The position numbers and the translations under genes are program-made. From contig CP154954.1 of NCBI GenBank assembly GCA_039621445.1, forward strand, positions 682,001-746,000: a stretch of 64,000 nt of DNA. Reading direction: 5' to 3'. This stretch comes from Euglena gracilis. Its lineage: Eukaryota. Numbering within the stretch: the stretch's first letter is position 1; each line of letters starts with the position of its first letter. The notes under the pieces were generated by a model, which saw only the letters and a list, made by a program, of their open reading frames with translations, made no database searches and was not told the origin of the DNA. Positions 7,269 through 25,992 of the stretch are shown here, in pieces.

Positions 7269-7496
7269 AAACATCAAAGTTGGTCAAATCCTTTCACCCT
7301 CTTGGTGACCAAGCAAGGGGCACATTTACTATAATGTGTACACTAAAAGCGCGCTTTGTAGGATTCGAACCTACTACATCAGGTTTTGGAGACCTACGCC
7401 TTACAATTTTAACGAAAAGCAATATTTAGCTATGCTTAACACATGCAAGTTGAACGAAAGGCTTTAATCCACGACCCTACCTTTATCAAAGATATT

Positions 7497-8380
7497 CCAT
7501 AATAAGCAGTTAACGTCGTTTCTAAAGAGTTGAACATGTTTTTTATCTCATTTACATTTTGATATTCAAGGATATTTGAGTTGACAAAAATTATCGCATC
7601 ATAATGATAAGTATTGTTTAATTTCAGTAAATCCTTGGATTTCTTAACTACTAAAGGATAAAAGCCTTTAAATTGCAAATAAGATTCGAAAAAATCGATT
7701 AAATATCTATGTTCACTGCCTAAAATTAAAAATACCTTATTTTTACCCATATTTAGATGGGATTCATAAATATCCAACATCCACCTTAAGTCTTTGGGTA
7801 TTATGTATTCATTAAAATTAATTTTTTATTTCACACCTAATCTCGTACTTAAATATATGTTTCTTAATTGACGTTCAATAGCGTCGCCCTTATATACAAA
7901 TTCTGAAGGTTTTTCTTTTTCAAACAGTAACATAGCATTTTCTATGTCCCCTTTTTTCACTAATTCAATCATCCTTTCTTCCAAAGGAAGATATTGAAAA
8001 TATTTACCATATTTTTTAAGAATTGATTCCGAAGCCATGAAATTTTCTGAAGCATCCACAAAGTTAAATATTTGTTTTATTAAATAGTCGAGCAAATCTT
8101 TCTCATTGTTAACTCTGGCCTATAAATTTTAGAATCAATAGATATATCGAAAAAATTTGCCAATTTAGTATCGACTTCTTTAATAAAATACGAATGCACA
8201 TGAGGGTCCACCTGTTCTATGAAATTCTCGTACTAACGCATAATCAACTAATCCATATTTAACCTCAATAGTGAGAATACTTATCAAAATCCTGATAAGG
8301 TACTTCCTTAATATTTACTCCCTATAAGTTTTTAATAAGTCAATTTTAAATTTATTAATTTAATAAGGTAAAAAGTAGGC
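7497..8380 (-). pseudogene. Geminivirus-like Rep pseudogene (inverted copy)
   Basis: Mirror of 14750-15633 with the same frameshifts and internal stop. Confidence 0.75.
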
Positions 8381-8738
8381 AAACTCACTATACTCCATCA
8401 AAAAAAACGCCAATTATTCTACAAATTGACATTGATAAAAAAGCATATTTAAATAAGTGATAGAATAATCACATTTTCCATAACACTATATTTTAATTAA
8501 TCGATTTTTTTGACACGCTTTAAAAAAAATATTCTACTTCTACTACGTTTAAAATATGCCCATTTTAAATAATAAAAAAAAAAAGCTTTCAACTAAATTT
8601 TTGGTCCAGGTTTTTTTCATCATATTGTGCTTTATAAGAACAATATTTTTTATAAATTTTTTTTACTGTTAAATTGATTTTTGTATTATTTAAATTTTTT
8701 TCTTCTTTTTTTGTCATACTTTTCTCCCTATATAAAAA

Positions 8739-9794
8739 TCAAAAACAAGGCAATGAAGACCGAATCTGCCGTAAATCGACATTTTCACAAGCTCTTTTTC
8801 TAAAGTTTTTAACCATTATATCTAACTGTTCTTCACCATAAATTTCTTTGTTCACTAAAGTATATAATTCAAATTTATCAATTTTTTTATTTTTTGCTTT
8901 TTCTAGAAAAAAAATAAGAAGCATTTCTACAAAAATTCAGTTAAAATCCCAGTTTTTATAATTATCGTTTTTTAAAGAATTATGTTTATAAAACTTAGAA
9001 GCTTGCTTAAATAAAAAAATATTAGAAATATTAGAATTTGAGATACTATTTTCTAATACTGCGACTTCAGATATATACTTCAACAACATAGAACGAAGTT
9101 TTATTGCATCGTTTTTACTCGTTAAAAAAAACAAATTTTTGTACTCTATTATATATTTTTCAATGATGTTTAAAAATTGATCATTAGCTTTCAAAACATT
9201 AAAATGATCGTGTAAAAAATTATTAGAATCATTTATTTCTAATTCCTTTTTCTCTTCTGTTATTTTTTCTTTCACTTTTAAATAATTTTCTGAGGAATTG
9301 GAAATCAATTTAGAAAAAAACGAAGGAAAACAATGATCTTTTCGCGCACGACTTAATAAATTATTTTTAATAACAAAATCAAAACTTAAAGAATTTTTTA
9401 AACCATTTTCAAACCTTGGAACACCTGACCAACAAACTTCAATGTTTTTATTCCCTGTTTTAGAAAAAAAATTATCAAGTGAAGTTTTACTACTCGATCC
9501 CTTTTCTACAATAACAGAATTTTTTTCAAAAGAAAATAATTTTTTAAGACCATGCCTTCGGTAATTTTTATTAAATTCTATATAGACCTCTATAGTCACT
9601 TCACAAAAGTTGTTTAAATTATTTTCAGACAAATCAAAACCATAAATAATAAAAGAAATAGAGTTATAATTAATTAACTCTTTCCACTTTTTGATGAATA
9701 ATAAGTTAAAATCCTCAAAACTACCGAACCCTGTTTTAATAAAAACATGCCAGTTTTTTCCTGGAACCATTGAATACATAATAAAATCTCCCAT
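8739..9794 (-). pseudogene. Inverted copy of the 351-aa ORF, split by TGG>TGA
   Basis: 285-aa and 61-aa ORFs in the same frame match the translation of 13336-14391. Confidence 0.85.
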
Positions 9795-10824
9795 AAATAA
9801 AAAAATAAATCATTTTTTGAAAACCTCAAACTTCCATATCTCCATTATGCAAAAAAAAAAAAAAATGAAAAAAAAAATTTGCAAACCTTCAATTCGAACT
9901 TGCGACCCACTACGATGAAGTAACATAATCACAACGTTACCAATTAAGGATTTTTTTTCTATAATAATAATTTTTTTAAAAAAAAATGAGTGTGAAAAAT
10001 ATAAAAATCTTAATTGAAAAAAAAAATAATAACAAATAACAACTTTTTAAAAAATATAAAAAAATAGATCATTAAAATATATCTTAACTACAATTTCGTT
10101 GTAGGTTAAATTTTAAAAAATCCCGAAGTAAATTGCAAGAACTCTGGAATCAAGGAAAAATATATAAGCAAAAAAAATAACACAGTTTTGCTTAAAGAAA
10201 AAAATAAATTTTCTGAATAAATACATCCTAAAAATCATAAATAAAATGTAAGAAATTGCTTTTTTTGATGAATAATAAGTTAAAATCCTCAAAACTACCG
10301 AATCCTGTCTTAATAAAAACATGCCAATTTTTACCCGGCACTATTGAATGCATAAAAATCTCCCATAAATAAAATCACCGAATTTTAGAACAACCCCCCC
10401 CTATTTGCAAAAAAAAAAAAAAAAATGAAAAAAAAAATTGCAAAACCCAAATTCGAGCTGTCGTACTAATTACGATACTGAAATGTAGTTACCACATAGT
10501 CTACAAAGCATTTTTTTTTTTCTAAAAAAATAATAAAAAAAATTGACCTATTTTTATATAAAAAACCATGTGTTAAGGAAATAATATTACGTATAAAAAA
10601 CGTAGTGACTACTAATAATTATGTATCAAGTTATTTAATACATAAAAAATTTAATATATTGATATTTTTCTTTGAAATCGAAAATAGTATGTATTGACAT
10701 CAGAGGTAATTTTTTTACTCCTCCGTTTTTTGCATTTCTATAATAGTATTATCTGTGTATAAGTTACGCGGTAACTCAACTCCTTTTTCCTCAAGAAATT
10801 TTTCAATAAACTCATAAAATTGCT

Positions 10825-11167
10825 ATTGTGATGAAAAGGATCGTGCAACCTGGTTTCTATTTAAGTATGTGTGTAGCTAATGCATATGAACTTCCTGCAA
10901 TCGTATACCACAATCATCCGGTTAGCAATGATATGTTACAATTTAATCCGACTTTGCAAACAGGATTTGTCTACCCATACGGGCCAGTCAATGTCAGCAC
11001 CGGTCAAATACCTGGGGGGGAATTTAGGCCGAACGTATGTTCATAAAAAAAAAATGTTTACTTCAAAAGATCTAGCAGTTTCATACAACTGTAATGTGGA
11101 GGATGGATTTGTTGAGGTTATAGAAATCCAATTTAATTATTATAAGGATGCATTCCCCCCCGAGTAA
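10825..11167 (+). other. Single-copy, relatively GC-rich coding-like fragment (5'-truncated; possible frameshift at the G7 run)
   Basis: Two overlapping ORFs (10828-11046, 10880-11167) join at CTGGGGGGG into one protein-like sequence ending IQFNYYKDAFPPE*. Confidence 0.45.
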
Positions 11168-11176
11168 TATTCCTTT

Positions 11177-12087
11177 CTATTTTCGATTTCAAAGAAAAAT
11201 ATCAATATATTAAATTTTTTATGTATTAAATAACTTGATACATAATTATTAGTAGTCACTACGTTTTTTATACGTAATATTATTTCTTTAACACATGGTT
11301 TTTTATATAAAAATAGGTCAATTTTTTTATTATTTTTTTAGAAAAAAAAAAATGCTTTGTAGACTATGTGGTAACTACATTTCAGTATCGTAATTAGTAC
11401 GACAGCTCGAATTTGGGTTTTGCAATTTTTTTTTTTCATTTTTTTTTTTTTTTTGCAAATAGGGGGGGTTGTTCTAAAATTCGGTGATTTTATTTATGGG
11501 AGATTTTTATGCATTCAATAGTGCCGGGTAAAAATTGGCATGTTTTTATTAAGACAGGATTCGGTAGTTTTGAGGATTTTAACTTATTATTCATCAAAAA
11601 AAGCAATTTCTTACATTTTATTTATGATTTTTAGGATGTATTTATTCAGAAAATTTATTTTTTTCTTTAAGCAAAACTGTGTTATTTTTTTTGCTTATAT
11701 ATTTTTCCTTGATTCCAGAGTTCTTGCAATTTACTTCGGGATTTTTTAAAATTTAACCTACAACGAAATTGTAGTTAAGATATATTTTAATGATCTATTT
11801 TTTTATATTTTTTAAAAAGTTGTTATTTGTTATTATTTTTTTTTTCAATTAAGATTTTTATATTTTTCACACTCATTTTTTTTAAAAAAAATTATTATTA
11901 TAGAAAAAAAAAATCCTTAATTGGTAACGTTGTGATTATGTTACTTCATCGTAGTGGGTCGCAAGTTCGAATTGAAGGTTTGCAATTTTTTTTTTCATTT
12001 TTTTTTTTTTTTGCATAATGGAGATATGGGAGTTTGAGGTTTTCAAAAAATGATTTATTTTTTTATTTATGGGAGATTTTATTATGT
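11177..12087 (+). repeat. Direct repeat copy 1 (~910 bp; period ~1267 bp)
   Basis: Near-identical to 12444-13354 from CTATTTTCGATTTC to ATGGGAGATTTTATTATGT. Confidence 0.95.
11509..11749 (+). pseudogene. Truncated paralog of the 351-aa ORF N-terminus
   Basis: MHSIVPGKNWHVFIKTGFGSFEDFNLLFIKK...* (11509-11634), plus FFFKQNCVI in a shifted frame matching FSFEKNSVI. Confidence 0.9.
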
Positions 12088-12416
12088 TTTATTTTATGTG
12101 CTCAATGGTTCCCGAAAGGGATTATCAAAAATTAATGGAAGATAAAAAGGAATTAGAAAGAAATGATTATCCTATTTTTAATGAAAAAAAACCTAATGAT
12201 CAACTTTTTAGTTGGGAAGATGTTGTTCTGAGAAACGAAATTGCTGAAAAACGTCGCAGAAAACAGTATGGCGAATCATATGAATATGATTCTAAGCAAA
12301 GAGAAAAGCAATTTTATGAGTTTATTGAAAAATTTCTTGAGGAAAAAGGAGTTGAGTTACCGCGTAACTTATACACAGATAATACTATTATAGAAATGCA
12401 AAAAACGGAGGAGTAA
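12069..12416 (+). CDS. 115-aa ORF, internally deleted paralog of the 351-aa ORF
   Basis: Shares MGDFIM...SMVP, then KLMEDKKELERND...PNDQ matching KITEEKKELEIND...ANDQ. Confidence 0.65.
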   Translation: MGDFIMFYFMCSMVPERDYQKLMEDKKELERNDYPIFNEKKPNDQLFSWEDVVLRNEIAEKRRRKQYGESYEYDSKQREKQFYEFIEKFLEEKGVELPRNLYTDNTIIEMQKTEE

Positions 12417-12443
12417 AAAAATTACCTCTGATGTCAATACATA

Positions 12444-13354
12444 CTATTTTCGATTTCAAAGAAAAATATCAATATATTAAATTTTTTATGTATTAAATAA
12501 CTTGATACATAATTATTAGTAGTCACTACGTTTTTTATACGTAATATTATTTCCTTAACACATGGTTTTTTATATAAAAATAGGTCAATTTTTTTTATTA
12601 TTTTTTTAGAAAAAAAAAAATGCTTTGTAGACTATGTGGTAACTACATTTCAGTATCGTAATTAGTACGACAGCTCGAATTTGGGTTTTGCAATTTTTTT
12701 TTTCATTTTTTTTTTTTTTTTGCAAATAGGGGGGGGTTGTTCTAAAATTCGGTGATTTTATTTATGGGAGATTTTTATGCATTCAATAGTGCCGGGTAAA
12801 AATTGGCATGTTTTTATTAAGACAGGATTCGGTAGTTTTGAGGATTTTAACTTATTATTCATCAAAAAAAGCAATTTCTTACATTTTATTTATGATTTTT
12901 AGGATGTATTTATTCAGAAAATTTATTTTTTTCTTTAAGCAAAACTGTGTTATTTTTTTTGCTTATATATTTTTCCTTGATTCCAGAGTTCTTGCAATTT
13001 ACTTCGGGATTTTTTAAAATTTAACCTACAACGAAATTGTAGTTAAGATATATTTTAATGATCTATTTTTTATATTTTTTAAAAAGTTGTTATTTGTTAT
13101 TATTTTTTTTTTCAATTAAGATTTTTATATTTTTCACACTCATTTTTTTTTAAAAAAATTATTATTATAGAAAAAAAATCCTTAATTGGTAACGTTGTGA
13201 TTATGTTACTTCATCGTAGTGGGTCGCAAGTTCGAATTGAAGGTTTGCAAATTTTTTTTTTCATTTTTTTTTTTTTTTTGCATAATGGAGATATGGAAGT
13301 TTGAGGTTTTCAAAAAATGATTTATTTTTTTATTTATGGGAGATTTTATTATGT
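12444..13354 (+). repeat. Direct repeat copy 2
   Basis: Near-identical to 11177-12087. Confidence 0.95.
12777..13017 (+). pseudogene. Second copy of the truncated N-terminal paralog
   Basis: Matches 11509-11749; a third, inverted copy lies at 10113-10353. Confidence 0.9.
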
Positions 13355-14391
13355 ATTCAATGGTTCCAGGAAAAAACTGGCATGTTTTTATTAAAACAGG
13401 GTTCGGTAGTTTTGAGGATTTTAACTTATTATTCATCAAAAAGTGGAAAGAGTTAATTAATTATAACTCTATTTCTTTTATTATTTATGGTTTTGATTTG
13501 TCTGAAAATAATTTAAACAACTTTTGTGAAGTGACTATAGAGGTCTATATAGAATTTAATAAAAATTACCGAAGGCATGGTCTTAAAAAATTATTTTCTT
13601 TTGAAAAAAATTCTGTTATTGTAGAAAAGGGATCGAGTAGTAAAACTTCACTTGATAATTTTTTTTCTAAAACAGGGAATAAAAACATTGAAGTTTGTTG
13701 GTCAGGTGTTCCAAGGTTTGAAAATGGTTTAAAAAATTCTTTAAGTTTTGATTTTGTTATTAAAAATAATTTATTAAGTCGTGCGCGAAAAGATCATTGT
13801 TTTCCTTCGTTTTTTTCTAAATTGATTTCCAATTCCTCAGAAAATTATTTAAAAGTGAAAGAAAAAATAACAGAAGAGAAAAAGGAATTAGAAATAAATG
13901 ATTCTAATAATTTTTTACACGATCATTTTAATGTTTTGAAAGCTAATGATCAATTTTTAAACATCATTGAAAAATATATAATAGAGTACAAAAATTTGTT
14001 TTTTTTAACGAGTAAAAACGATGCAATAAAACTTCGTTCTATGTTGTTGAAGTATATATCTGAAGTCGCAGTATTAGAAAATAGTATCTCAAATTCTAAT
14101 ATTTCTAATATTTTTTTATTTAAGCAAGCTTCTAAGTTTTATAAACATAATTCTTTAAAAAACGATAATTATAAAAACTGGGATTTTAACTGGATTTTTG
14201 TGGAAATGCTTCTTATTTTTTTTCTAGAAAAAGCAAAAAATAAAAAAATTGATAAATTTGAATTATATACTTTAGTGAACAAAGAAATTTATGGTGAAGA
14301 ACAGTTAGATATAATGGTTAAAAACTTTAGAAAAAGAGCTTGTGAAAATGTCGATTTACGGCAGATTCGGTCTTCATTGCCTTGTTTTTGA
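13336..14391 (+). CDS. 351-aa plastid ORF (probably the E. gracilis ORF350 type) with an N-terminal degenerate HUH/Rep-like domain
   Basis: Long open frame in very AT-rich DNA; spacing of KNWHVF / FIIYG / YIEFNK..LKKLF / VEKGSSS / FFSKTGN follows circo/nanovirus Rep (by-eye comparison). The ORF350 identity is from recall. Confidence 0.8.
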   Translation: MGDFIMYSMVPGKNWHVFIKTGFGSFEDFNLLFIKKWKELINYNSISFIIYGFDLSENNLNNFCEVTIEVYIEFNKNYRRHGLKKLFSFEKNSVIVEKGSSSKTSLDNFFSKTGNKNIEVCWSGVPRFENGLKNSLSFDFVIKNNLLSRARKDHCFPSFFSKLISNSSENYLKVKEKITEEKKELEINDSNNFLHDHFNVLKANDQFLNIIEKYIIEYKNLFFLTSKNDAIKLRSMLLKYISEVAVLENSISNSNISNIFLFKQASKFYKHNSLKNDNYKNWDFNWIFVEMLLIFFLEKAKNKKIDKFELYTLVNKEIYGEEQLDIMVKNFRKRACENVDLRQIRSSLPCF

Positions 14392-14749
14392 TTTTTATAT
14401 AGGGAGAAAAGTATGACAAAAAAAGAAGAAAAAAATTTAAATAATACAAAAATCAATTTAACAGTAAAAAAAATTTATAAAAAATATTGTTCTTATAAAG
14501 CACAATATGATGAAAAAAACCTGGACCAAAAATTTAGTTGAAAGCTTTTTTTTTTTATCATTGAAAATGGGCATATTTTAAACGTAGTAGAAGTAGAATA
14601 TTTTTCTTAAAGCGTGTCAAAAAAATCGATTAATTAAAATATAGTGTCATGGAAAATGTGATTATTCTATCACTTATTTAAATATGCTTTTTTATCAATG
14701 TCAATTTGTAGAATAATTGGCGTTTTTTTTGATGGAGTATAGTGAGTTT

Positions 14750-15633
14750 GCCTACTTTTTACCTTATTAAATTAATAAATTTAAAATTGACTTATTAAAA
14801 ACTTATAGGGAGTAAATATTAAGGAAGTACCTTATCAGGATTTTGATAAGTATTCTCACTATTGAGGTTAAATATGGATTAGTTGATTATGCGTTAGTAC
14901 GAGAATTTCATAGAACAGGTGGACCCTCATGTGCATTCGTATTTTATTAAAGAAGTCGATACTAAATTGGCAAATTTTTTCGATATATCTATTGATTCTA
15001 AAATTTATAGGCCAGAGTTAACAATGAGAAAGATTTGCTCGACTATTTAATAAAACAAATATTTAACTTTGTGGATGCTTCAGAAAATTTCATGGCTTCG
15101 GAATCAATTCTTAAAAAATATGGTAAATATTTTCAATATCTTCCTTTGGAAGAAAGGATGATTGAATTAGTGAAAAAAGGGGACATAGAAAATGCTATGT
15201 TACTGTTTGAAAAAGAAAAACCTTCAGAATTTGTATATAAGGGCGACGCTATTGAACGTCAATTAAGAAACATATATTTAAGTACGAGATTAGGTGTGAA
15301 ATAAAAAATTAATTTTAATGAATACATAATACCCAAAGACTTAAGGTGGATGTTGGATATTTATGAATCCCATCTAAATATGGGTAAAAATAAGGTATTT
15401 TTAATTTTAGGCAGTGAACATAGATATTTAATCGATTTTTTCGAATCTTATTTGCAATTTAAAGGCTTTTATCCTTTAGTAGTTAAGAAATCCAAGGATT
15501 TACTGAAATTAAACAATACTTATCATTATGATGCGATAATTTTTGTCAACTCAAATATCCTTGAATATCAAAATGTAAATGAGATAAAAAACATGTTCAA
15601 CTCTTTAGAAACGACGTTAACTGCTTATTATGG
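14750..15633 (+). pseudogene. Geminivirus-like rolling-circle Rep pseudogene (probably the ORF406-type locus)
   Basis: VREFHRTG/DPHVH (14897-14936), NFFDI..IYRP (14973-15014), DYLIK (15041-15055), AMLLFEKEKPSEFV..LRNIY, and decayed helicase; at least 2 frameshifts and a stop at 15302. Confidence 0.78.
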
Positions 15634-15780
15634 AATATCTTTGATAAAGGTAGGGTCGTGGATTAAAGCCTTTCGTTCAACTTGCATGTGTTAAGCATAG
15701 CTAAATATTGCTTTTCGTTAAAATTGTAAGGCGTAGGTCTCCAAAACCTGATGTAGTAGGTTCGAATCCTACAAAGCGCG
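15633..15780 (+). pseudogene. Mosaic leader: partial pseudo-trnI, inverted 16S fragment, pseudo-trnW
   Basis: TTTGATAAAGGTAGGGTCG resembles the trnI anticodon arm; CGTAGGTCTCCAAAACCTGATGTAGTAGGTTCGAATCCTACA is identical to the 3' part of trnW, with a decayed D arm. Confidence 0.8.
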
Positions 15781-15861
15781 CTTTTAGTGTACACATTATA
15801 GTAAATGTGCCCCTTGCTTGGTCACCAAGAGGGTGAAAGGATTTGACCAACTTTGATGTTT

Positions 15862-16605
15862 TGGAAATGACGAGTTTGATCCTTGCTCAGGGTGAACGCT
15901 GGCGGTATGCTTAACACATGCAAGTTGAACGAAATTACTAGCAATAGTAATTTAGTGGCGGACGGGTGAGTAATATGTAAGAATCTGCGCTTGGGTGAGG
16001 AATAACAGATGGAAACGTTTGCTAATGCCTCATAATTTACTAGATCTATGTGAGTAGCTAGTTAAAGAGAATTTCGCCTAGGCATGAGCTTGCATCTGAT
16101 TAGCTTGTTGGTGAGGTAAAGGCTTACCAAGGCGACGATCAGTAGCTGATTTGAGAGGATGATCAGCCACACTGGGATTGAGAACGGAACAGACTTTTAC
16201 GGAAGGCAGCAGTGAGGAATTTTCCGCAATGGGCGCAAGCCTGACGGAGCAATACCGCGTGAAGGAAGAAGGCCTTTGGGTTGTAAACTTCTTTTCTCAA
16301 AGAAGAAGAAATGACGGTATTTGAGGAATAAGCATCGGCTAATTCCGTGCCAGCAGCCGCGGTAATACGGGAGATGCGAGCGTTATCCGGAATTATTGGG
16401 CGTAAAGAGTTTGTAGGCGGTCAAGTGTGTTTAATGTTAAAAGTCAAAGCTTAACTTTGGAAGGGCATTAAAAACTGCTAGACTTGAGTATGGTAGGGGT
16501 GAAGGGAATTTCCAGTGTAGCGGTGAAATGCGTAGAGATTGGAAAGAACACCAATGGCGAAGGCACTTTTCTAGGCCAATACTGACGCTGAGAAACGAAA
16601 GCTGA

Positions 16606-16637
<32 letters not shown>

Positions 16638-16730
16638 TTGGCCGTAAACTATGGATACTAAGTGGTGCTGAAAGTGCACTGCTGTAGTTAACACGTTAAG
16701 TATCCCGCCTGGGGAGTACGCTTGCACAAG

Positions 16731-16811
<81 letters not shown>

Positions 16812-16879
16812 AGGATTTGACAGGATCTAGGAGGAAGTTTGAAAGAACGCAGTACCTTCGGGTATCTAGACACAGGTGG

Positions 16880-16931
<52 letters not shown>

Positions 16932-17191
16932 CCTTTTTTTTAATTAACGCTTGTCATTTAGAAATACTGCTGGTTATTACCAGAGGAAGGTGAGGACGAC
17001 GTCAAGTCATCATGCCCCTTATATCCTGGGCTACACACGTGCTACAATGGTTAAGACAATAAGTTGCAATTTTGTGAAAATGAGCTAATCTTAAAACTTA
17101 GCCTAAGTTCGGATTGTAGGCTGAAACTCGCCTACATGAAGCCGGAATCGCTAGTAATCGCCGGTCAGCTATACGGCGGTGAATACGTTCT

Positions 17192-17228
<37 letters not shown>

Positions 17229-17348
17229 TGGCTGTGCCCGAAGTTATTATCTTGCCTGAAAAGAGGGAAATACCTAAGGCCTGGCTGGTGACTGGGGTGA
17301 AGTCGTAACAAGGTAGCCGTACTGGAAGGTGTGGCTGGAACAACTCCC
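15862..17348 (+). rRNA. rrs: 16S rRNA, operon 1 (9-nt deletion allele)
   Basis: AGTTTGATCC, GTGCCAGCAGCCGCGGTAA and AAGTCGTAACAAGG motifs. Confidence 0.97.
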
Positions 17349-17434
17349 TTTAGTTTTTTAACTAAAAAAATGTATAGATTGAAAACAATGAAAAATAAAA
17401 AAAATAAGTAGGGAAACCTCTTATTTTTCCAAGA

Positions 17435-17508
17435 GGGCTATTAGCTCAGTTGGTTAGAGCATACCCTTGATAAGGGTAAGGTCGCTAGTTCAAGTCTAGC
17501 ATGGCCCT
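17435..17508 (+). tRNA. trnI: tRNA-Ile(GAU)
   Basis: Cloverleaf; anticodon loop TTGATAA. Confidence 0.96.
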
Positions 17509-17517
17509 CTTGGTTTT

Positions 17518-17590
17518 GGGGGTATAGCTCAGTTGGTAGAGCGCTGCCTTTGCAAGGCAGATGTCAGCGGTTCGAGTCCGCTTATCTCCA
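17518..17590 (+). tRNA. trnA: tRNA-Ala(UGC)
   Basis: Cloverleaf; anticodon loop TTTGCAA. Confidence 0.96.
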
Positions 17591-17607
17591 AAAAGGTTTT
17601 GATGTAG

Positions 17608-19528
17608 GTTCAAATGAACAAGGGCTTATGCGGGATTGCTTGGCATTTAGAGTCGAAGAAGGGCGTAGAAATTAACGATATGCTTTAGGGAGCTAAAGAC
17701 GAGCTTTAATCTAAAGATTCCCGAATGGGGCAACCTATTACTTTAACATTACAATGAAATGGTATACAAATAATGTAGAGAACTTGGTGAACTGAAACAT
17801 CTTAGTAGCCGAAGGAAAAGAAAGCAAAAGCGATTTTCTTATTAGTGGCGAGCTAACGGAAATCAGCCTAAACCTTTATGGGTGTTGTGGGTATATTATA
17901 ATTACTGAAAAAGATAGAGAATTTGTTGAAAACAAAATCAAAGAGGGTTTTAAATCCCGTATTTGTTTTTAAAAAGTAATTTTTGATTTTCCCGAGTAGC
18001 ATAGAGCACGTGGAATTCTGTGTGAATCAGCGAGGACCATCTCGTAAGGCTAAATACTCCTAAATGACCGATAGTGTACGAGTACCGTGAGGGAAAGCTG
18101 AAATAGAACACTGAGAAGTGAGTGAAATAGAATATGAAAGCATAAGTTTACAAGCAGTAGGAGATCTATTTAAAGATTGACTGTGTGCCTGTTGAAGAAT
18201 GAGCCGGCGACTTATAGGTGATGGCAAGGTTAAGGTTTTTCCGGAGCCATAGTGAAATCGAGCTTAAATAAAGCGAAAAACTTTCTTCTTGAAAGTTTAT
18301 GTCATTGCTTATAGACCCGAACCCAGGTGATCTAATCATGGTCAGGTTGAAGTTTTGGTAAAACAGAATGGAGGACCGAACCCACCAATGTTGAAAAATT
18401 GGGGGATGAACTGTGATTAGGGGAGAAATTCCAATCGAACTTGGAGCTAGCTGGATCTCTTCGAAATGCGTTGAGGCGCAGCGTTTAATTATGGTAAACA
18501 TTAGGGGTAAAGCACTGTTTCGATGCGGGCTATGAAAATGGTACCAAGTTGTGGCAAACTCTGAATACTAAGTTATATTTCAATTAATCAGTGAGACAGT
18601 GGGGGATAAGCTTCATTGTCAAGAGGGAAACAGCCCAGATCACTACTTAAGGCCCCTAAATAATTACTAAGTGGTAAAGGATGTACTATTACATAGACAA
18701 CCAGGAGGTTGGCTTAGAAGCAGCCATTCCTTTAAAAAGTGCGTAATAGCTTACTGGTCAAGTGATAGTGCGCCGAAAATGAACGGGACTAAGTAATTTG
18801 CCGAAGGTGTGAGAGAAATCGGTAGAAGAGCGTTCTGTGTTGAAGAGAAGGAATAGTGAAAATAGTTCTGGATTAAACAGAAGTGAGAATGTCGGCTTAA
18901 GTAACGAAAACATTGGTGAAAATCCTATGCTCCGAAAACCTAAGGTTTCCTTAGCCAGGTTCGTCCTCTAAGGGTTAGTCAGGTCCTAAAATAAGGTTTA
19001 ACAACGTAAATTGATGGATGACAGGTTAATATTCCTGTACCGAATGCTCACTTGTAAGGAGTGACGAAAAAGGCTAGATCGGCCACGTGATGGTTTGTGG
19101 TTTAAGGGTTCAAGAGGTATCAAATATTAAAAAAAATATTTTGTCTTAAGGCCTGAATAGTATAAATACTACGGTATTGAAAGTGATTGATGTCATGTTT
19201 CCAAGAAAAACTTTTGTTTATGTATAGTGAGCTCGCCTGTACCGTAAACTGACACAGGTAGGTTAGTAGAATATACTAAGGAGCGCGAGATAACTCTTTC
19301 TAAGGAACTCGGCAAAATGACTTCGTAACTTCGGAAGAAGAAGTACCTCTAATGAGGTGGCAGAAAAGAGGTCCAAGCGACTGCTTACCAAAAGCACAGG
19401 TCTCCGCGAAGTTGAAAAACCATGTATGGGGGCCGAGGCCTGCTCAGTGCAGGAAGGTTAAAGAAATTGGTTAGCGTAAGCAAAGCTAGTGACTGAAGCC
19501 CCTGTGAACAGCGGCAATAACTATAATT

Positions 19529-19581
<53 letters not shown>

Positions 19582-20069
19582 TTAACGATTTGGACACTGT
19601 CTCAGAAAGAGACTCGGTGAAATAGAATTGACTGTGAAGATGCGGTCTACTTGCACTTGGACAGAAAGACCCTATGAAGCTTTACTGTATCCTGAAATTG
19701 GTTTCGGGCTTTTTTTGCGCAGAATAGGTGGGAGGCTATGATCTTGTCTTTTGGGATACGGGGAGCCGAAAAATGAGATACCACTCTGAGAAAGCTAGAA
19801 ATCTAATCTTAATCTTATGTACAATCATGATAATTGACAGTTTCAGGCGGGCAGTTTTACTGGGGCGGTAGCCTCCTAAAAAGTAACGGAGGCGTACAAA
19901 GGTTTTCTCAGGCTAGACGGAAATTAGTTGTGGAGTGTAAAGGCATAAGAAAGCTTGACTGTGAGACTTATAAGTCAAACAGAGACTAAAGTCGGTCTTA
20001 GTGACCCGACGGTGCTGTATGGAAAGGCCGTCGTAAACAGATAAAAGTTACTCTAGGGATAACAGGCTG

Positions 20070-20129
<60 letters not shown>

Positions 20130-20146
20130 ACCTGGGGCGGTAGTAC

Positions 20147-20181
<35 letters not shown>

Positions 20182-20497
20182 TACGTGAGCTGGGTTCAGA
20201 ACGTCGAGAGACAGTTCGGTCCATATCCGGTGTGAGCGTTAGAGTATTGAAAGGCGCTTTCCTTAGTACGAGAGGACCGGGAAGGACGCACCACTGATGT
20301 ACCAGTTTTTGTGCCAACAGAATACGCTGGGTAGTCAAGTGCGGAGTGGATAACTGCTGAAAGCATATAAGTAGGAAGCCCACCTTAAGATAAGTACTCT
20401 TCATAGGTCACGGTAAGACGAACCGTTTGATAGGTATTAGGTGTACAATTGGTAACAATTTTAGCCGAGATATACTAACCGACCGAAAATTTTTTCC
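17608..20497 (+). rRNA. rrl: 23S rRNA, operon 1 (ends approximate)
   Basis: GAACTGAAACATCTTAGTA, peptidyl-transferase loop and sarcin-ricin loop AGTACGAGAGGACC. Confidence 0.96.
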
Positions 20498-20571
20498 TAT
20501 ATGAAAACAAAACATTTATTTTTACTTGTCACTTTTTTAAGATTTAAAAGTTTCTTGAATGAACTTTTATT

Positions 20572-20688
20572 TTAGGGTGCTCTTGTCTTTATGGATCCAC
20601 TTAAAACATTTCGAACTTGCAAGTTAAACATAAAGGGTAAATAGATACTTGAAAGGTTACTTTCCGGGAAAAGATTTTAGTGCCCTTA
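20572..20688 (+). rRNA. rrf: 5S rRNA, operon 1
   Basis: ~117 nt with complementary ends (AGGGTGCT/AGTGCCCT), downstream of 23S. Confidence 0.85.
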
Positions 20689-21540
20689 TGGGAAGTTTAA
20701 TTTATTTAATTGTCTCTTAGTGAGTTTATTTATTAATATTAACTCGATTTTCGAGTAATTTTTATGACTGCCGTTACGTTAGTGTTTTATTGCATGGATA
20801 AATGTATTGTGGTATAATTAAACCAAGGAATTTGTCAAACCACGTTTCCTTTAAGTTTGAATTTTTTTTGGCCAAAACATGATGCTTCCGAAAAAATAAG
20901 ACAATCTGTTTATAGAAATCAGTGAATTTCGTAATATTTTTCTTTTAAAATTTTAAACGATATGAATAATATCCTCGAGTGTTTGGAAAATGACTATGTT
21001 TCTTCGCTAATATAAAAGATTAATCACAAAATTCAACAAGATAGGTTGAATCATAGTGAGAATATTAGGTAATCTTCTGATAAGAGTTTTATTTTGTTGT
21101 ACATTATAGTTATTGCTACTTTGTATTTGGTTCTTTGTGTTATGTGTGTGCTTTTTAGTTGTAAATTTTTTGCTAGTAAGAAGCGTGTCGTTCATTGTCG
21201 ATTTGGACGAATATTTATAAAATGCTACAAGAGACCAAAATGTCTTTATACTTCTTATATTGCTGCTGAGTACCCTATATTTTGTGATATTGAAAAATAT
21301 TAAGGTAAGGTTCCTAGACTTTCATACGTAAATGCTCATGCGCACAGTTTAGGTGTTATGCTTTTATCCCTGATCTTGTGAATTCTTTTCATTCACAAGA
21401 AATAACTTAGCTTAATTCCTAGTGTAAATTTTTCCGTACTTTAACGTGTGGCTGGGACAATTTTTTTATTTTTAATTAAAATACCGTATAAATTTTAAAA
21501 AATAAAAAAATCAAAAGGAAAATTTTTTATTTTTCAAAGA

Positions 21541-21691
21541 TCACTATTATCTTTTATTATTATAGAATACCTTTGATAAGGGTAGGGTCGTGGATTGAAT
21601 CCTTGTATTAGCCAAATATTTCTTTTCTTTAAAATCCTAAGGCGTAGGTCTCCAAAACCTGATGTAGTAGGTTCGAATCCTACAAAGCGCG
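21541..21691 (+). pseudogene. Pseudo-trnI and pseudo-trnW, operon 2 leader
   Basis: ATACCTTTGATAAGGGTAGGGTCG matches trnI; 3' part of trnW is retained. Confidence 0.8.
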
Positions 21692-21772
21692 CTTTTAGTG
21701 GGCACATTATAGTAAATGTGCCCCTTGCTTGGTCACCAAGAGGGTGAGAGGATTTGACCAACTTTGATGTTT

Positions 21773-22516
21773 TGGAAATGACGAGTTTGATCCTTGCTCA
21801 GGGTGAACGCTGGCGGTATGCTTAACACATGCAAGTTGAACGAAATTACTAGCAATAGTAATTTAGTGGCGGACGGGTGAGTAATATGTAAGAATCTGCG
21901 CTTGGGTGAGGAATAACAGATGGAAACGTTTGCTAATGCCTCATAATTTACTAGATCTATGTGAGTAGCTAGTTAAAGAGAATTTCGCCTAGGCATGAGC
22001 TTGCATCTGATTAGCTTGTTGGTGAGGTAAAGGCTTACCAAGGCGACGATCAGTAGCTGATTTGAGAGGATGATCAGCCACACTGGGATTGAGAACGGAA
22101 CAGACTTCTACGGAAGGCAGCAGTGAGGAATTTTCCGCAATGGGCGCAAGCCTGACGGAGCAATACCGCGTGAAGGAAGACGGCCTTTGGGTTGTAAACT
22201 TCTTTTCTCAAAGAAGAAGAAATGACGGTATTTGAGGAATAAGCATCGGCTAATTCCGTGCCAGCAGCCGCGGTAATACGGGAGATGCGAGCGTTATCCG
22301 GAATTATTGGGCGTAAAGAGTTTGTAGGCGGTCAAGTGTGTTTAATGTTAAAAGTCAAAGCTTAACTTTGGAAGGGCATTAAAAACTGCTAGACTTGAGT
22401 ATGGTAGGGGTGAAGGGAATTTCCAGTGTAGCGGTGAAATGCGTAGAGATTGGAAAGAACACCAATGGCGAAGGCACTTTTCTAGGCCAATACTGACGCT
22501 GAGAAACGAAAGCTGA

Positions 22517-22548
<32 letters not shown>

Positions 22549-22641
22549 TTGGCCGTAAACTATGGATACTAAGTGGTGCTGAAAGTGCACTGCTGTAGTT
22601 AACACGTTAAGTATCCCGCCTGGGGAGTACGCTTGCACAAG

Positions 22642-22722
<81 letters not shown>

Positions 22723-22790
22723 AGGATTTGACAGGATCTAGGAGGAAGTTTGAAAGAACGCAGTACCTTCGGGTATCTAGACACAGGTGG

Positions 22791-22855
<65 letters not shown>

Positions 22856-23111
22856 TTTTTTAATTAACGCTTGTCATTTAGAAATACTGCTGGTTATTAC
22901 CGGAGGAAGGTGAGGACGACGTCAAGTCATCATGCCCCTTATATCCTGGGCTACACACGTGCTACAATGGTTAAGACAATAAGTTGCAATTTTGTGAAAA
23001 TGAGCTAATCTTAAAACTTAGCCTAAGTTCGGATTGTAGGCTGAAACTCGCCTACATGAAGCCGGAATCGCTAGTAATCGCCGGTCAGCTATACGGCGGT
23101 GAATACGTTCT

Positions 23112-23149
<38 letters not shown>

Positions 23150-23268
23150 GGCTGTGCCCGAAGTTATTATCTTGCCTGAAAAGAGGGAAATACCTAAGGC
23201 CTGGCTGGTGACTGGGGTGAAGTCGTAACAAGGTAGCCGTACTGGAAGGTGTGGCTGGAACAACTCCC
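21773..23268 (+). rRNA. rrs: 16S rRNA, operon 2
   Basis: Full SSU with intact GCAACGAGCGCAACCC. Confidence 0.97.
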
Positions 23269-23354
23269 TTTAGTTTTTTAACTAAAAAAATGTATAGATT
23301 GGAAACAATGAAAAATAAAAAAAATAAGTAGGGAAACCTCTTATTTTTCCAAGA

Positions 23355-23428
23355 GGGCTATTAGCTCAGTTGGTTAGAGCATACCCTTGATAAGGGTAAG
23401 GTCGCTAGTTCAAGTCTAGCATGGCCCT
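23355..23428 (+). tRNA. trnI: tRNA-Ile(GAU)
   Basis: Same as operon 1. Confidence 0.96.
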
Positions 23429-23437
23429 CTTGGTTTT

Positions 23438-23510
23438 GGGGGTATAGCTCAGTTGGTAGAGCGCTGCCTTTGCAAGGCAGATGTCAGCGGTTCGAGTCCG
23501 CTTATCTCCA
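23438..23510 (+). tRNA. trnA: tRNA-Ala(UGC)
   Basis: Same as operon 1. Confidence 0.96.
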
Positions 23511-23527
23511 AAAAGGTTTTGATGTAG

Positions 23528-25451
23528 GTTCAAATGAACAAGGGCTTATGCGGGATTGCTTGGCATTTAGAGTCGAAGAAGGGCGTAGAAATTAACGATA
23601 TGCTTTAGGGAGCTAAAGACGAGCTTTAATCTAAAGATTCCCGAATGGGGCAACCTATTATTACTTTAACATTACAATGAAATGGTATACAAATAATGTA
23701 GAGAACTTGGTGAACTGAAACATCTTAGTAGCCGAAGGAAAAGAAAGCAAAAGCGATTTTCTTATTAGTGGCGAGCTAACGGAAATCAGCCTAAACCTTT
23801 ATGGGTGTTGTGGGTATATTATAATTACTGAAAAAGATAGAGAATTTGTTGAAAACAAAATCAAAGAGGGTTTTAAATCCCGTATTTGTTTTTAAAAAGT
23901 AATTTTTGATTTTCCCGAGTAGCATAGAGCACGTGGAATTCTGTGTGAATCAGCGAGGACCATCTCGTAAGGCTAAATACTCCTAAATGACCGATAGTGT
24001 ACGAGTACCGTGAGGGAAAGCTGAAATAGAACACTGAGAAGTGAGTGAAATAGAATATGAAAGCATAAGTTTACAAGCAGTAGGAGATCTATTTAAAGAT
24101 TGACTGTGTGCCTGTTGAAGAATGAGCCGGCGACTTATAGGTGATGGCAAGGTTAAGGTTTTTCCGGAGCCATAGTGAAATCGAGCTTAAATAAAGCGAA
24201 AAACTTTCTTCTTGAAAGTTTATGTCATTGCTTATAGACCCGAACCCAGGTGATCTAATCATGGTCAGGTTGAAGTTTTGGTAAAACAGAATGGAGGACC
24301 GAACCCACCAATGTTGAAAAATTGGGGGATGAACTGTGATTAGGGGAGAAATTCCAATCGAACTTGGAGCTAGCTGGATCTCTTCGAAATGCGTTGAGGC
24401 GCAGCGTTTAATTATGGTAAACATTAGGGGTAAAGCACTGTTTCGATGCGGGCTATGAAAATGGTACCAAGTTGTGGCAAACTCTGAATACTAAGTTATA
24501 TTTCAATTAATCAGTGAGACAGTGGGGGATAAGCTTCATTGTCAAGAGGGAAGCAGCCCAGATCACTACTTAAGGCCCCTAAATAATTACTAAGTGGTAA
24601 AGGATGTACTATTACATAGACAACCAGGAGGTTGGCTTAGAAGCAGCCATTCCTTTAAAAAGTGCGTAATAGCTTACTGGTCAAGTGATAGTGCGCCGAA
24701 AATGAACGGGACTAAGTAATTTGCCGAAGGTGTGAGAGAAATCGGTAGAAGAGCGTTCTGTGTTGAAGAGAAGGAATAGTGAAAATAGTTCTGGATTAAA
24801 CAGAAGTGAGAATGTCGGCTTAAGTAACGAAAACATTGGTGAAAATCCTATGCTCCGAAAACCTAAGGTTTCCTTAGCCAGGTTCGTCCTCTAAGGGTTA
24901 GTCAGGTCCTAAAATAAGGTTTAACAACGTAAATTGATGGATGACAGGTTAATATTCCTGTACCGAATGCTCACTTGTAAGGAGTGACGAAAAAGGCTAG
25001 ATCGGCCACGTGATGGTTTGTGGTTTAAGGGTTCAAGAGGTATCAAATATTAAAAAAAATATTTTGTCTTAAGGCCTGAATAGTATAAATACTACGGTAT
25101 TGAAAGTGATTGATGTCATGTTTCCAAGAAAAACTTTTGTTTATGTATAGTGAGCTCGCCTGTACCGTAAACTGACACAGGTAGGTTAGTAGAATATACT
25201 AAGGAGCGCGAGATAACTCTTTCTAAGGAACTCGGCAAAATGACTTCGTAACTTCGGAAGAAGAAGTACCTCTAATGAGGTGGCAGAAAAGAGGTCCAAG
25301 CGACTGCTTACCAAAAGCACAGGTCTCCGCGAAGTTGAAAAACGATGTATGGGGGCCGAGGCCTGCTCAGTGCAGGAAGGTTAAAGAAATTGGTTAGCGT
25401 AAGCAAAGCTAGTGACTGAAGCCCCTGTGAACAGCGGCAATAACTATAATT

Positions 25452-25504
<53 letters not shown>

Positions 25505-25992
25505 TTAACGATTTGGACACTGTCTCAGAAAGAGACTCGGTGAAATAGAATTGACTGTGAAGATGCGGTCTACTTGCACTTGGACAGAAAGACCCTATGA
25601 AGCTTTACTGTATCCTGAAATTGGTTTCGGGCTTTTTTTGCGCAGAATAGGTGGGAGGCTATGATCTTGTCTTTTGGGATACGGGGAGCCGAAAAATGAG
25701 ATACCACTCTGAGAAAGCTAGAAATCTAATCTTAATCTTATGTACAATCATGATAATTGACAGTTTCAGGTGGGCAGTTTTACTGGGGCGGTAGCCTCCT
25801 AAAAAGTAACGGAGGCGTACAAAGGTTTTCTCAGGCTAGACGGAAATTAGTTGTGGAGTGTAAAGGCATAAGAAAGCTTGACTGTGAGACTTATAAGTCA
25901 AACAGAGACTAAAGTCGGTCTTAGTGACCCGACGGTGCTGTATGGAAAGGCCGTCGTAAACAGATAAAAGTTACTCTAGGGATAACAGGCTG

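What the first reader, a model, noticed from the sequence alone, without database searches (positions are those of the whole stretch)
10825..15700. Candidate system: a CRESS-derived island coupled to the tandem rDNA array
Seen: within 5 kb and all on one strand lie a capsid-like fragment, four starts of one ORF family each behind a related leader, a ~0.9-kb direct repeat, the dead Rep-like ORF and a geminivirus-type Rep whose 3' end is fused to the rRNA leader. Another family remnant sits after the last operon (34096). Established: HUH Reps initiate rolling-circle replication and promote recombination. From recall, the E. gracilis plastid origin and length-variable region map upstream of the rDNA. 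Inference: repeated integration of ssDNA virus or plasmid elements built this region and may relate to origin function or to the tandem, copy-number-variable rDNA. Causality is not shown.
Basis: inference. Interest (0 to 1): 0.8.

Follow-up and report, generated by a model that had tools for sequence, protein, structure and literature searches.

The report
Rep gene fossil beside plastid rDNA
Just upstream of the tandem ribosomal RNA genes of a Euglena-type chloroplast genome lies the broken remnant of a geminivirus-type replication gene and duplicated pieces of a second unknown gene, a rare trace of foreign DNA in a plastid genome; no role in replication or in the rDNA array is shown.

Summary
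Window 14771-15625 (+) is a decayed geminivirus-type (Gemini_AL1-like) Rep gene. A profile I built from 169 Rep proteins puts its two best hits in the whole window on adjacent, collinear frames there. Their chain scores 20.5 bits; the next best elsewhere is 4.0, and 40 shuffled windows gave at most 10.2. Read through with X at the four breaks it scores 37 bits. HUH and YxxK motifs survive, the Walker A loop is lost, and the open frame runs into the rDNA repeat unit. Pfam sees nothing on single frames.

The 1267-bp tandem repeat and the four related leader-plus-start modules are real. ORF351 is intact, and its N-terminus shows purifying selection (7 synonymous against 2 non-synonymous changes). 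Its Rep likeness rests only on protein-language-model neighbours (30 of 30).

The "capsid" fragment has no support, and the remnant near 34096 is weak. No origin hairpin was found. Nothing links the island causally to rDNA copy number or to origin function.

One caveat applies throughout. The window is a zig-zag of inverted copies, and the finding's left edge (10827|10828) is a fold-back junction, possibly an assembly artefact.

Verdict: a new member of a known kind, an organelle-integrated Rep fossil, of moderate interest.

The parts
10828..11176 (+). Unique 349-nt stretch 'U' between the fold-back junction and the first repeat unit. Two overlapping ORFs (10810-11046 and 10877-11167) change frame near a run of seven G. 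Identity unknown.
   Evidence: GC 0.38 against 0.22-0.28 in the flanks. Sequence. No Pfam, PDB, PHROGs, IMG/VR or PLSDB match.
11177..12443 (+). Tandem repeat unit 1 (period 1267). It holds leader-plus-start modules 1 and 2.
   Evidence: the repeat finder D8, D10-D12, D14, D15. Self-BLAST: 11177-12087 against 12444-13354, 98.8% over 915 nt.
12444..13354 (+). Tandem repeat unit 2 (first 911 nt). It holds modules 3 and 4 and runs into ORF351.
11350..11601 (+). Module 1: leader plus the first 31 codons of the ORF351 family. The frame closes after 41 codons. Module 3 at 12618-12869 is its copy.
   Evidence: Alignment A2. tblastn 93.5% over 31 aa. 7 synonymous against 2 non-synonymous differences to ORF351, p 1.3e-4. 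Nothing of ORF351 follows.
12069..12416 (+). ORF115 behind module 2. It shares the leader and first codons with ORF351. Residues 19-48 resemble ORF351 residues 175-209, so it is probably an internally deleted family member.
   Evidence: Local alignment score 61, reached by 3 of 1000 shuffles.
13336..14391 (+). ORF351, the intact family member. The N-terminal ~115 residues may be a Rep endonuclease-like domain without the catalytic His-x-His or Tyr.
   Evidence: Chance of no stop in 351 codons at this composition is about 2e-16. 30 of 30 language-model neighbours are Cressdnaviricota or Rep clusters, score 0.94. No Pfam, PDB or homologue hit.
14771..15625 (+). Geminivirus-type Rep pseudogene. 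Pieces: 14771-14812, stop, 14816-14926, frame moves by one base, 14928-15014, frame moves again, 15020-15301, stop, 15305-about 15625. HUH at 14928-14936 (HVH). FFD at 14976-14984. YxxK at 15044-15055 (YLIK). Walker A position at 15410-15433 without GK[T/S].
   Evidence: Local profile hits with E 0.013 and 0.13. Chain of 20.5 bits against 4.0 elsewhere. 0 of 40 shuffled windows reached it, maximum 10.2. Read-through with X scores 37.2 bits; 500 shuffles give at most 7.5. 8 stops in the main frame against 34 and 32 in the other two.
15625..15863 (+). Left end of rDNA repeat unit 1, the leader, including a tRNA-like element at 15708-15780. The Rep frame stays open into it up to 15694.
   Evidence: Alignment A3. 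Rfam tRNA 37.4 bits, not called by ARAGORN.
15864..32554 (+). Three tandem operons, 16S-trnI-trnA-23S-5S, period about 5920.
7430..10827 (-). Mirror copy of the Rep pseudogene, ORF351 (here closed at codon 286) and one repeat unit. It ends at the fold-back junction 10827|10828.
34015..34203 (+). Possible remnant of the ORF351 C-terminus after the last operon (18 residues). Weak.
   Evidence: Not found at E<=1.

Best explanation
The island is the decayed remnant of a small rolling-circle replicon, a plasmid or a CRESS-type virus with a geminivirus-type Rep. It became part of the plastid DNA of a Euglena gracilis-type alga directly upstream of the rRNA operons.

The Rep gene is dead. It is out of frame twice and stopped twice, its P-loop is gone, and its 3' part is cut off where the rDNA repeat unit begins. 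It cannot now nick or unwind DNA.

Upstream lies a second gene family (ORF351). One member is intact and the others are 5' fragments or a deletion derivative. Local duplication copied them together with their leader (1267-bp period). The long T tracts in the leaders make slippage and unequal exchange likely.

Shown: the Rep homology and its breaks, the repeat anatomy, past purifying selection on the ORF351 N-terminus, and physical abutment to the rDNA unit.

Inferred: foreign origin by integration, ORF351 belonging to the same kind of element, and absence of present function for the Rep remnant. Adjacency to the rDNA array is physical only. No causal tie to copy number or to the origin is shown.
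For: Context:
- Plastid context of euglenid type. There are four rRNA operons with trnI and trnA and RNA polymerase subunit pieces split as by introns.
- rps4 matches a name-masked cluster at 100%; the next hit is Euglena hiemalis at 86%.

Profile test:
- A profile of 169 Rep proteins was built from seeds verified as Gemini_AL1.
- It was run over all 2669 six-frame segments of the window. Its two best distinct hits are +15011-15301 (E 0.013, profile 100-172) and +14898-15047 (E 0.13, profile 68-95).
- A third piece, +14816-14947, aligns to profile 47-68. The pieces tile the profile across the frame changes.
- The collinear chain scores 20.5 bits against 4.0 for the next place. 0 of 40 dinucleotide-shuffled windows reached it; their maximum was 10.2.
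- The read-through with X at each break scores 37.2 bits over profile 45-216; 500 residue shuffles give at most 7.5.
- The six nearest fetched Reps all carry Pfam Gemini_AL1, and 2 of 6 carry Gemini_AL1_M.

Other support:
- The main frame has 8 stops against 34 and 32 in the other frames, with 28 expected.
- The rDNA-unit similarity starts near 15625, inside the open frame.
- Repeat and leader anatomy.
- ORF351 N-terminus: pS 0.43 against pN 0.026.
- 18 of the 24 listed sequencing runs, from 12 studies, hold at least half of the sampled words of 10600-15700.
- Precedents seen in passages. Rep-like sequence in Phytophthora mitochondrial DNA is ascribed to an integrated plasmid (PMC3198968). Geminivirus-related replicase genes of red-algal plasmids are detected in organellar genomes (PMC4814812).
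Against: - Pfam reports no Rep family on any piece, or on any of the three frames read with X for stops, at E<=10. PDB, PLSDB and language-model searches with single Rep pieces gave nothing relevant. tblastn with one phytoplasma Rep gave only noise.
- The break points of the 37-bit read-through were chosen after seeing the alignments. The chain test is the unbiased one.
- No close relative of the Rep piece or of ORF351 was found in IMG/VR or JGI metagenome contigs. The donor lineage is therefore unknown.
- There is no capsid and no origin hairpin.
- ORF351 is intact and was under purifying selection. That argues against 'all junk' for that part.
- ORF351 shows no similarity to the Rep pseudogene (132 of 500 shuffles score as well).
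- The window contains fold-back joins. I could not lay reads. Contiguity of the left part of the island is therefore unverified.
Confidence: 0.7

Rival explanations
1. Domesticated element. ORF351 is a catalytically dead Rep derivative kept by the plastid as a DNA-binding protein, for example at the replication origin. The repeat region with its T tracts is, or lies in, the origin or variable-size region. On this reading the island is functional rather than a fossil.
For: - ORF351 is open over 351 codons, with a chance probability of about 2e-16.
- Purifying selection on its N-terminus: 7 synonymous against 2 non-synonymous changes.
- Rep-like neighbours by language-model features, 30 of 30.
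- The E. gracilis origin is reported in a tandem-repeat region upstream of the rDNA (PMC3308993 passages).
Against: - No alignment-based Rep homology for ORF351.
- No homologue in any collection searched.
- The mirror copy carries a stop at codon 286.
- Expression was not tested.
- The published distance of the origin, about 6 kb upstream of an extra 16S gene, cannot be mapped here because the window shows no extra 16S gene.
Confidence: 0.12
2. Assembly chimera. The island, or part of it, above all U at 10828-11176, is not truly joined to plastid rDNA. It was stitched in by the same process that produced the fold-back contig.
For: - The window is a zig-zag. 1160-10827 mirrors 12304-21970, and 33604-48118 mirrors 48833-63584.
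- Near the second turn one arm (46700-48118) lacks 40 short stretches relative to the other. All the losses are on one side, as in poorly polished long-read sequence.
- U has foreign composition and sits exactly at the first junction.
Against: - 13250-21171 is present in both arms, joined to the 16S leader.
- The island outside U has plastid-like composition, GC 0.22-0.28.
- The Rep frame runs into sequence shared with the spacers before operons 2 and 3.
- Many runs hold most of its words, though that does not prove contiguity.
Confidence: 0.08
3. Chance resemblance. The Rep motifs arise by chance in AT-rich non-coding DNA.
For: Pfam is silent. Each single-frame hit is weak, 8.7 and 11.8 bits. 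A single hit in shuffled windows reached 9.8 bits.
Against: - The two top hits of the window are adjacent and collinear. 0 of 40 shuffles approach the chain score.
- The read-through scores 37 bits.
- Stops are depleted in the main frame.
Confidence: 0.03

Closest known systems
Geminivirus/genomovirus-type Rep (Pfam Gemini_AL1 with central domain and SF3 helicase), including the related Reps of phytoplasma plasmids
   Same: Order and spacing match. An E-x-H stretch comes first, then H-x-H, then an FFD...P stretch between motifs II and III, then YxxK, the central domain and the approach to Walker A. The nearest fetched proteins are Gemini_AL1 members. The seed was the pAYWB-I Rep.
   Different: The gene is broken by two frame changes and two stops. 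Walker A is lost and the 3' end is missing. It is not reported by Pfam on single frames. No origin hairpin and no capsid gene lie beside it.
Rep-like sequences in Phytophthora infestans mitochondrial DNA, ascribed to an integrated plasmid (PMC3198968, passages)
   Same: A geminivirus-related Rep remnant resident in an organelle genome, interpreted as an integrated plasmid.
   Different: Here the organelle is a secondary green plastid, not a mitochondrion. The remnant abuts the rDNA array and is accompanied by a duplicated second gene family.
Red-algal plasmids with geminivirus-related replicase genes, copies of which occur in organellar genomes (PMC4814812, passages)
   Same: Small plasmid replicons with gemini-like Rep, and traces of them in plastid and mitochondrial DNA of algae.
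   Different: No free plasmid is known here, and no sequence relative was found. The host is a euglenid.
Variable-size, tandem-repeat region near the mapped origin of E. gracilis chloroplast DNA (as cited in PMC3308993)
   Same: A tandem-repeat region upstream of the rDNA in the same kind of genome.
   Different: Identity of the two regions is not shown. The window has no extra 16S gene to anchor the published distance. The 54-bp repeat that I recall for that region was not found by TRF in 7400-35000.

Membership tests
Gemini_AL1-type HUH Rep (for 14771-15625) | Motif II, His-hydrophobic-His | tested here: met
   HVH at 14928-14936 aligns to the profile's HlH.
Gemini_AL1-type HUH Rep (for 14771-15625) | Motif III, YxxK with the catalytic Tyr | tested here: met
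   YLIK at 15044-15055 aligns to the profile's YikK.
Gemini_AL1-type HUH Rep (for 14771-15625) | Conserved stretch between motifs II and III (called GRS from recall) | tested here: met
   NFFDI...YRP aligns to rfFDi..fHP.
Gemini_AL1-type HUH Rep (for 14771-15625) | Motif I (FLTY-like) | tested here: inconclusive
   LLKTY at 14792-14806 sits 33 residues before the E-x-H stretch, the same spacing I counted by hand in P0001 of alignment A1. It lies outside the reported profile alignment.
Gemini_AL1-type HUH Rep (for 14771-15625) | Central (oligomerisation) domain | tested here: met
   Profile positions 120-172 and on to 216 are aligned. Pfam Gemini_AL1_M itself is not reported.
Gemini_AL1-type HUH Rep (for 14771-15625) | SF3 helicase Walker A, GxxxxGK[T/S] | tested here: not met
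   GSEHRYLI stands at 15410-15433 and the alignment ends there. With the first profile (A1) there was only a 3.3-bit match to the helicase part.
Gemini_AL1-type HUH Rep (for 14771-15625) | Curated Pfam threshold | tested here: not met
   No family at E<=10 on the pieces, or on three frames read with X for stops. A bridged sequence was not submitted to Pfam.
Gemini_AL1-type HUH Rep (for 14771-15625) | One open reading frame | tested here: not met
   Two frame changes and two in-frame stops.
CRESS-DNA virus or provirus | Capsid gene | tested here: not met
   The U ORFs have no match in Pfam, PDB, PHROGs, IMG/VR or PLSDB.
CRESS-DNA virus or rolling-circle plasmid | Origin stem-loop with the nonanucleotide in the loop | tested here: not met
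   TAATATTAC at 11274 and 12541 on the minus strand is not in a hairpin loop; the fold z-score is 0.01. A hairpin scan of 10700-15900 found none.
HUH Rep endonuclease domain (for the ORF351 N-terminus) | HUH and catalytic Tyr | tested here: not met
   No His-x-His, and Phe stands where the Tyr would fall in my alignment by eye (sequence).
HUH Rep endonuclease domain (for the ORF351 N-terminus) | Detectable sequence or fold similarity | tested here: inconclusive
   For: 30 of 30 language-model neighbours are Rep or Cressdnaviricota clusters, score 0.94, 199 of 256 features. Against: Pfam, PDB, hhalign, the local profile and phmmer against 178 Reps give nothing. Models had pLDDT 36 and 39, too poor for a fold search.

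The most novel reading that the evidence does not exclude
A geminivirus-like rolling-circle replicon integrated into the first unit of the plastid rDNA array and replaced its 23S-5S part. That event left the orphan 16S gene known from E. gracilis (recalled, and not visible in this window). The replicon's control region became the plastid's variable-size origin region. ORF351 would be a domesticated, catalytically dead Rep that still acts there. The plastid origin would then be of plasmid or viral descent.
Probability: 0.07. Interest if true: 0.85.

Novelty: new member of a known kind. Interest (0 to 1): 0.55.

Why it matters
Gain of foreign DNA by plastid genomes is rare, and euglenid plastomes have been compared many times. 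Four full-text searches returned no paper tying a Rep or HUH gene to a euglenid plastid.

A geminivirus-type Rep fossil in one of the oldest sequenced plastid genomes would show that rolling-circle replicons once lived in, or entered, a secondary green plastid. It would add an excavate alga to the hosts of this Rep lineage. It would also give a dated marker for comparing Euglena strains and species.

Its position, between a tandem-repeat region and the tandem rDNA and near where the origin of E. gracilis was mapped, turns an old question into a testable one: what the origin and variable region are made of. As it stands the island is a fossil plus one unexplained intact gene, not a demonstrated system.

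Tried and rejected
Rep pseudogene:
- Pfam on nine pieces and on three frames read with X for stops: no Rep family.
- PDB phmmer with Rep pieces: nothing relevant.
- Language-model neighbours of 15011-15301: best 0.89, no Rep family.
- tblastn of that piece against PLSDB: E of 4 or more.
- tblastn of one phytoplasma Rep against the window: noise only.
- First profile (14 sequences, mostly phytoplasma): top hit was the HUH piece at E 0.12, helicase piece at E 6.6. It was superseded by the 169-sequence profile.
- Rep piece in IMG/VR and JGI metagenomes: none.

ORF351:
- No homologue at E<=1 among 5.8 billion clusters at near lengths. 'Longer' and 'shorter' were not tried.
- None in IMG/VR, JGI metagenomes or PLSDB.
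- hhalign against both Rep alignments: probability below 1%.
- phmmer against 178 Reps: best E 0.016, on the middle of the ORF.
- PDB and PHROGs: none.
- Two AlphaFold2 single-sequence models had pLDDT 36.0 and 38.8, so no fold search was run.
- ORF351 as a paralogue of the Rep pseudogene: rejected, 132 of 500 shuffles score as well.

U as capsid: no match anywhere. The single IMG/VR 'hit' covers 10 residues.

Origin hairpin: TANTATTAC has 18 matches in the window, inflated by repeats, and none sits in a loop.

Remnant at 34096: long gapped tblastn matches of equal E occur on both strands of the AT-rich stretch, so only the 18-residue core counts.

Steps that gave no data:
- Read laying failed, so junctions, frameshifts and expression could not be checked.
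- No whole genome is held.
- Three older papers on the E. gracilis origin and genome were not held.
- Earlier-findings look-ups returned nothing.

Full report
CONTEXT

The window is plastid DNA of euglenid type. Rfam finds four 16S, four 23S and four 5S genes. tRNA-Ile and tRNA-Ala lie in the spacers of all four operons. Downstream of the array lie pieces of RNA polymerase beta, beta' and beta'' that are split as by introns. tRNA clusters and rps4 follow.

The rps4 product matches one cluster at 100% whose name is masked. The next hit is Euglena hiemalis at 86%. Many other Euglena species are named in the list, but E. gracilis is not. I infer E. gracilis or a very close strain. No whole genome is held for the window.

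THE WINDOW IS A ZIG-ZAG

- 1160-10827 is the reverse complement of 12304-21970 at 99.87%.
- 33604-48118 is the reverse complement of 48833-63584 at 97.9%.
- GC skew changes sign at both turns.

Near the second turn one arm (46700-48118) lacks 40 short stretches of 1-14 nt relative to the other arm. All the losses are on the same side. Its rps4 copy gives no ORF of 70 codons or more, and ARAGORN calls three tRNAs there against six in the other arm. That is the look of badly polished long-read sequence at a fold-back.

The first turn is different. Its junction is sharp, at 10827|10828, which is the left edge of the finding. The two arms differ at 13 positions. Six are substitutions clustered in 14193-14648, and all six are G or C in the right arm and A or T in the left. 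One of them closes the left copy of ORF351 at codon 286.

Whether the first turn is real therefore stays open. What matters for the finding is that 13250-21171 is present in both arms, joined to the 16S leader. In addition, 18 of the 24 listed runs, from 12 studies, hold at least half of the sampled words of 10600-15700.

ANATOMY OF THE ISLAND (+ STRAND)

- 10828-11176 (U) is unique, with GC 0.38 against 0.22-0.28 around it.
- 11177-12443 and 12444-13354 form a tandem repeat of period 1267, 98.8% identical over 915 nt.
- Each unit holds two leader-plus-start modules, giving four starts at 11509, 12069, 12777 and 13336.
- All four sit behind a related ~150-nt leader with the shared word ATGGGAGATTTT and a long T tract.
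- Modules 1 and 3 keep only 31 family codons and then close.
- Module 2 opens ORF115. Its residues 19-48 resemble ORF351 residues 175-209 (3 of 1000 shuffles reach the score). It looks like an internally deleted member.
- Module 4 opens the intact ORF351 (13336-14391).

THE REP PSEUDOGENE

The stock tests fail. Pfam reports no Rep family on any piece or on any frame read with X for stops. PDB, PLSDB and language-model look-ups with single pieces give nothing.

I therefore fetched real Reps and built a profile.
- A phytoplasma plasmid gene was verified as Gemini_AL1 at E 3.7e-20.
- Its relatives were collected and aligned.
- The alignment was searched against 1.84 billion representatives. It found 7417 proteins at E<=0.001, and the best 150 were returned.
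- A profile of 169 of the fetched proteins (250-450 aa) was run, without filters, over all 2669 stop-to-stop segments of the six frames of the window.

Its two best distinct hits are +15011-15301 (E 0.013, 11.8 bits, profile 100-172) and +14898-15047 (E 0.13, 8.7 bits, profile 68-95). Each also hits its mirror copy. A third piece, +14816-14947, aligns to profile 47-68. The three pieces lie next to each other on one strand and tile the profile exactly where the frame changes.

The collinear chain scores 20.5 bits. The next best chain anywhere else in the window scores 4.0. In 40 dinucleotide-preserving shuffles of the whole window the best chain ranged from 3.0 to 10.2.

Read through with X at the four breaks, the sequence scores 37.2 bits over profile 45-216. 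500 residue shuffles reach at most 7.5. The break points were chosen after the fact, so the chain test is the fair one.

Other features of the pseudogene:
- The six nearest fetched Reps all carry Gemini_AL1, and 2 of 6 also carry Gemini_AL1_M.
- The main frame has 8 stops in 308 codons against 34 and 32 in the other frames, with 28 expected. The decay is not old enough to have erased the frame.
- Preserved: an E-x-H stretch, HVH (14928-14936), FFD (14976-14984), YLIK (15044-15055), the central domain and the approach to Walker A.
- Lost: the P-loop (GSEHRYLI at 15410-15433), a single frame, and the 3' part.

Similarity to the spacers before operons 2 and 3 starts near 15625. By profile position, roughly the last sixty-odd residues of a full Rep are missing. 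This is my estimate and the coordinates.

ORF351

An open frame of 351 codons at this composition has a chance probability of about 2e-16. Its first 31 shared codons differ from those of modules 1 and 3 at 7 synonymous and 2 non-synonymous sites (pS 0.43, pN 0.026, binomial p 1.3e-4). The family was therefore protein-coding while the copies diverged.

For residues 1-150, all 30 listed language-model neighbours fall in sets dominated by Cressdnaviricota or carrying Viral_Rep, Gemini_AL1 or Rep_OBD. The score is 0.94 with 199 of 256 shared features. By eye, the motif I, II and III positions can be laid out with gemini-like spacing but without His-x-His or Tyr.

Nothing alignment-based confirms it:
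- Pfam, PDB, hhalign, the local profile and phmmer against 178 Reps.
- The 5.8-billion-cluster search, IMG/VR, JGI metagenomes and PLSDB.
- The two structure models are useless, with pLDDT 36 and 39.
- It is not a close paralogue of the Rep pseudogene.

I put Rep descent of ORF351 at about 0.6.

ITEMS THAT DO NOT HOLD

- U has no capsid or any other match. Its two ORFs change frame near a run of seven G. It may simply be the 3' end of an unknown gene cut by the junction.
- TAATATTAC occurs once per repeat unit on the minus strand, about 230 nt upstream of starts 1 and 3. It is not in a hairpin loop, and a hairpin scan of 10700-15900 found no origin-like stem-loop.
- The 'remnant at 34096' is an 18-residue match to the ORF351 C-terminus in an AT-rich stretch where equally good gapped matches occur on both strands. 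It was not reported at E<=1.

INTERPRETATION

The best reading is a fossil of a small rolling-circle replicon with a geminivirus-type Rep. It is now dead and truncated against the rDNA unit. Beside it lies a second gene family, multiplied by local duplication. Plasmid and virus cannot be told apart, since neither a capsid nor an origin is left.

Precedents exist. Rep-like sequence in Phytophthora mitochondrial DNA is ascribed to an integrated plasmid (PMC3198968, passages). Geminivirus-related replicase genes of red-algal plasmids have been detected in organellar genomes (PMC4814812, passages). Four full-text searches returned no paper that ties a Rep or HUH gene to a euglenid plastid. Papers outside the held library were not searched, and three older papers on the E. 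gracilis origin and genome were not held.

The link to origin function or to rDNA copy number is adjacency only. The E. gracilis origin is reported in a tandem-repeat region about 6 kb upstream of an extra 16S gene (PMC3308993, passages). This window shows three full operons on the + strand and no extra 16S gene. TRF found no short-period array upstream of the rDNA.

The boldest reading not excluded has three parts. The element integrated into the first rDNA unit. It left the orphan 16S gene (recalled). It supplied the origin region, with ORF351 as a domesticated dead Rep. I give this about 0.07.

VERDICT

This is a new member of a known kind, of moderate interest. The fold-back structure of the contig is the main technical caveat.

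Noticed in passing
window 1-64000; turns at 10827|10828 and 48118-48833: The whole window is a zig-zag of inverted copies. 1160-10827 mirrors 12304-21970, and 33604-48118 mirrors 48833-63584. GC skew flips at both turns. If closed on itself this would be a ~74-kb palindromic circle. More likely it is a fold-back artefact of a long-read assembly or a rearranged plastid DNA form.
   Followed up: partly
window 46700-48118 against 48833-50447: One arm lacks 40 short stretches (1-14 nt) relative to the other, all on the same side. Its rps4 copy and several tRNA genes are broken, while the other arm has an intact rps4 (49482-50099) and six tRNAs. This looks like unpolished sequence, not evolution.
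   Followed up: partly
window 14193-14648 against 8482-8937: Six of the 13 differences between the arms of the first inverted repeat are substitutions clustered in 455 nt. All are G/C in the right arm and A/T in the left. One makes a stop at codon 286 of the left ORF351 copy. This could be real divergence of two copies, heteroplasmy or a polishing error.
   Followed up: no
window 32554-34500; 32978-33604 against 63574-63584: After the last 5S gene comes an extremely AT-rich stretch (GC 0.11 at 33-34 kb) with 11-33-nt tandem repeats and a palindrome (33028-33167). The two arms differ here by a 626-nt insertion or deletion. This is a second candidate for a variable-size region.
   Followed up: no
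window 15708-15780 (mirror at 7350-7422): A tRNA-like element in the 16S leader of the first operon scores 37.4 bits in Rfam. ARAGORN does not call it, and Rfam does not report it before operons 2 and 3. A T-arm-like stretch just upstream (about 15639-15675) is shared with the spacers before operons 2 and 3.
   Followed up: partly
window 11274-11282 and 12541-12549 (minus strand), 10582-10590 (plus strand): The geminivirus nonanucleotide TAATATTAC occurs once per 1267-bp unit, on the strand opposite to the ORF starts and about 230 nt upstream of them. That is the gemini-like orientation, but it is not in a stem-loop. It may be chance.
   Followed up: yes
window 20713-21608 and 26636-27530: A ~900-nt spacer between the rDNA units is present twice and missing after the third unit. 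Its content was not examined beyond the Rep profile scan, which found nothing there.
   Followed up: no
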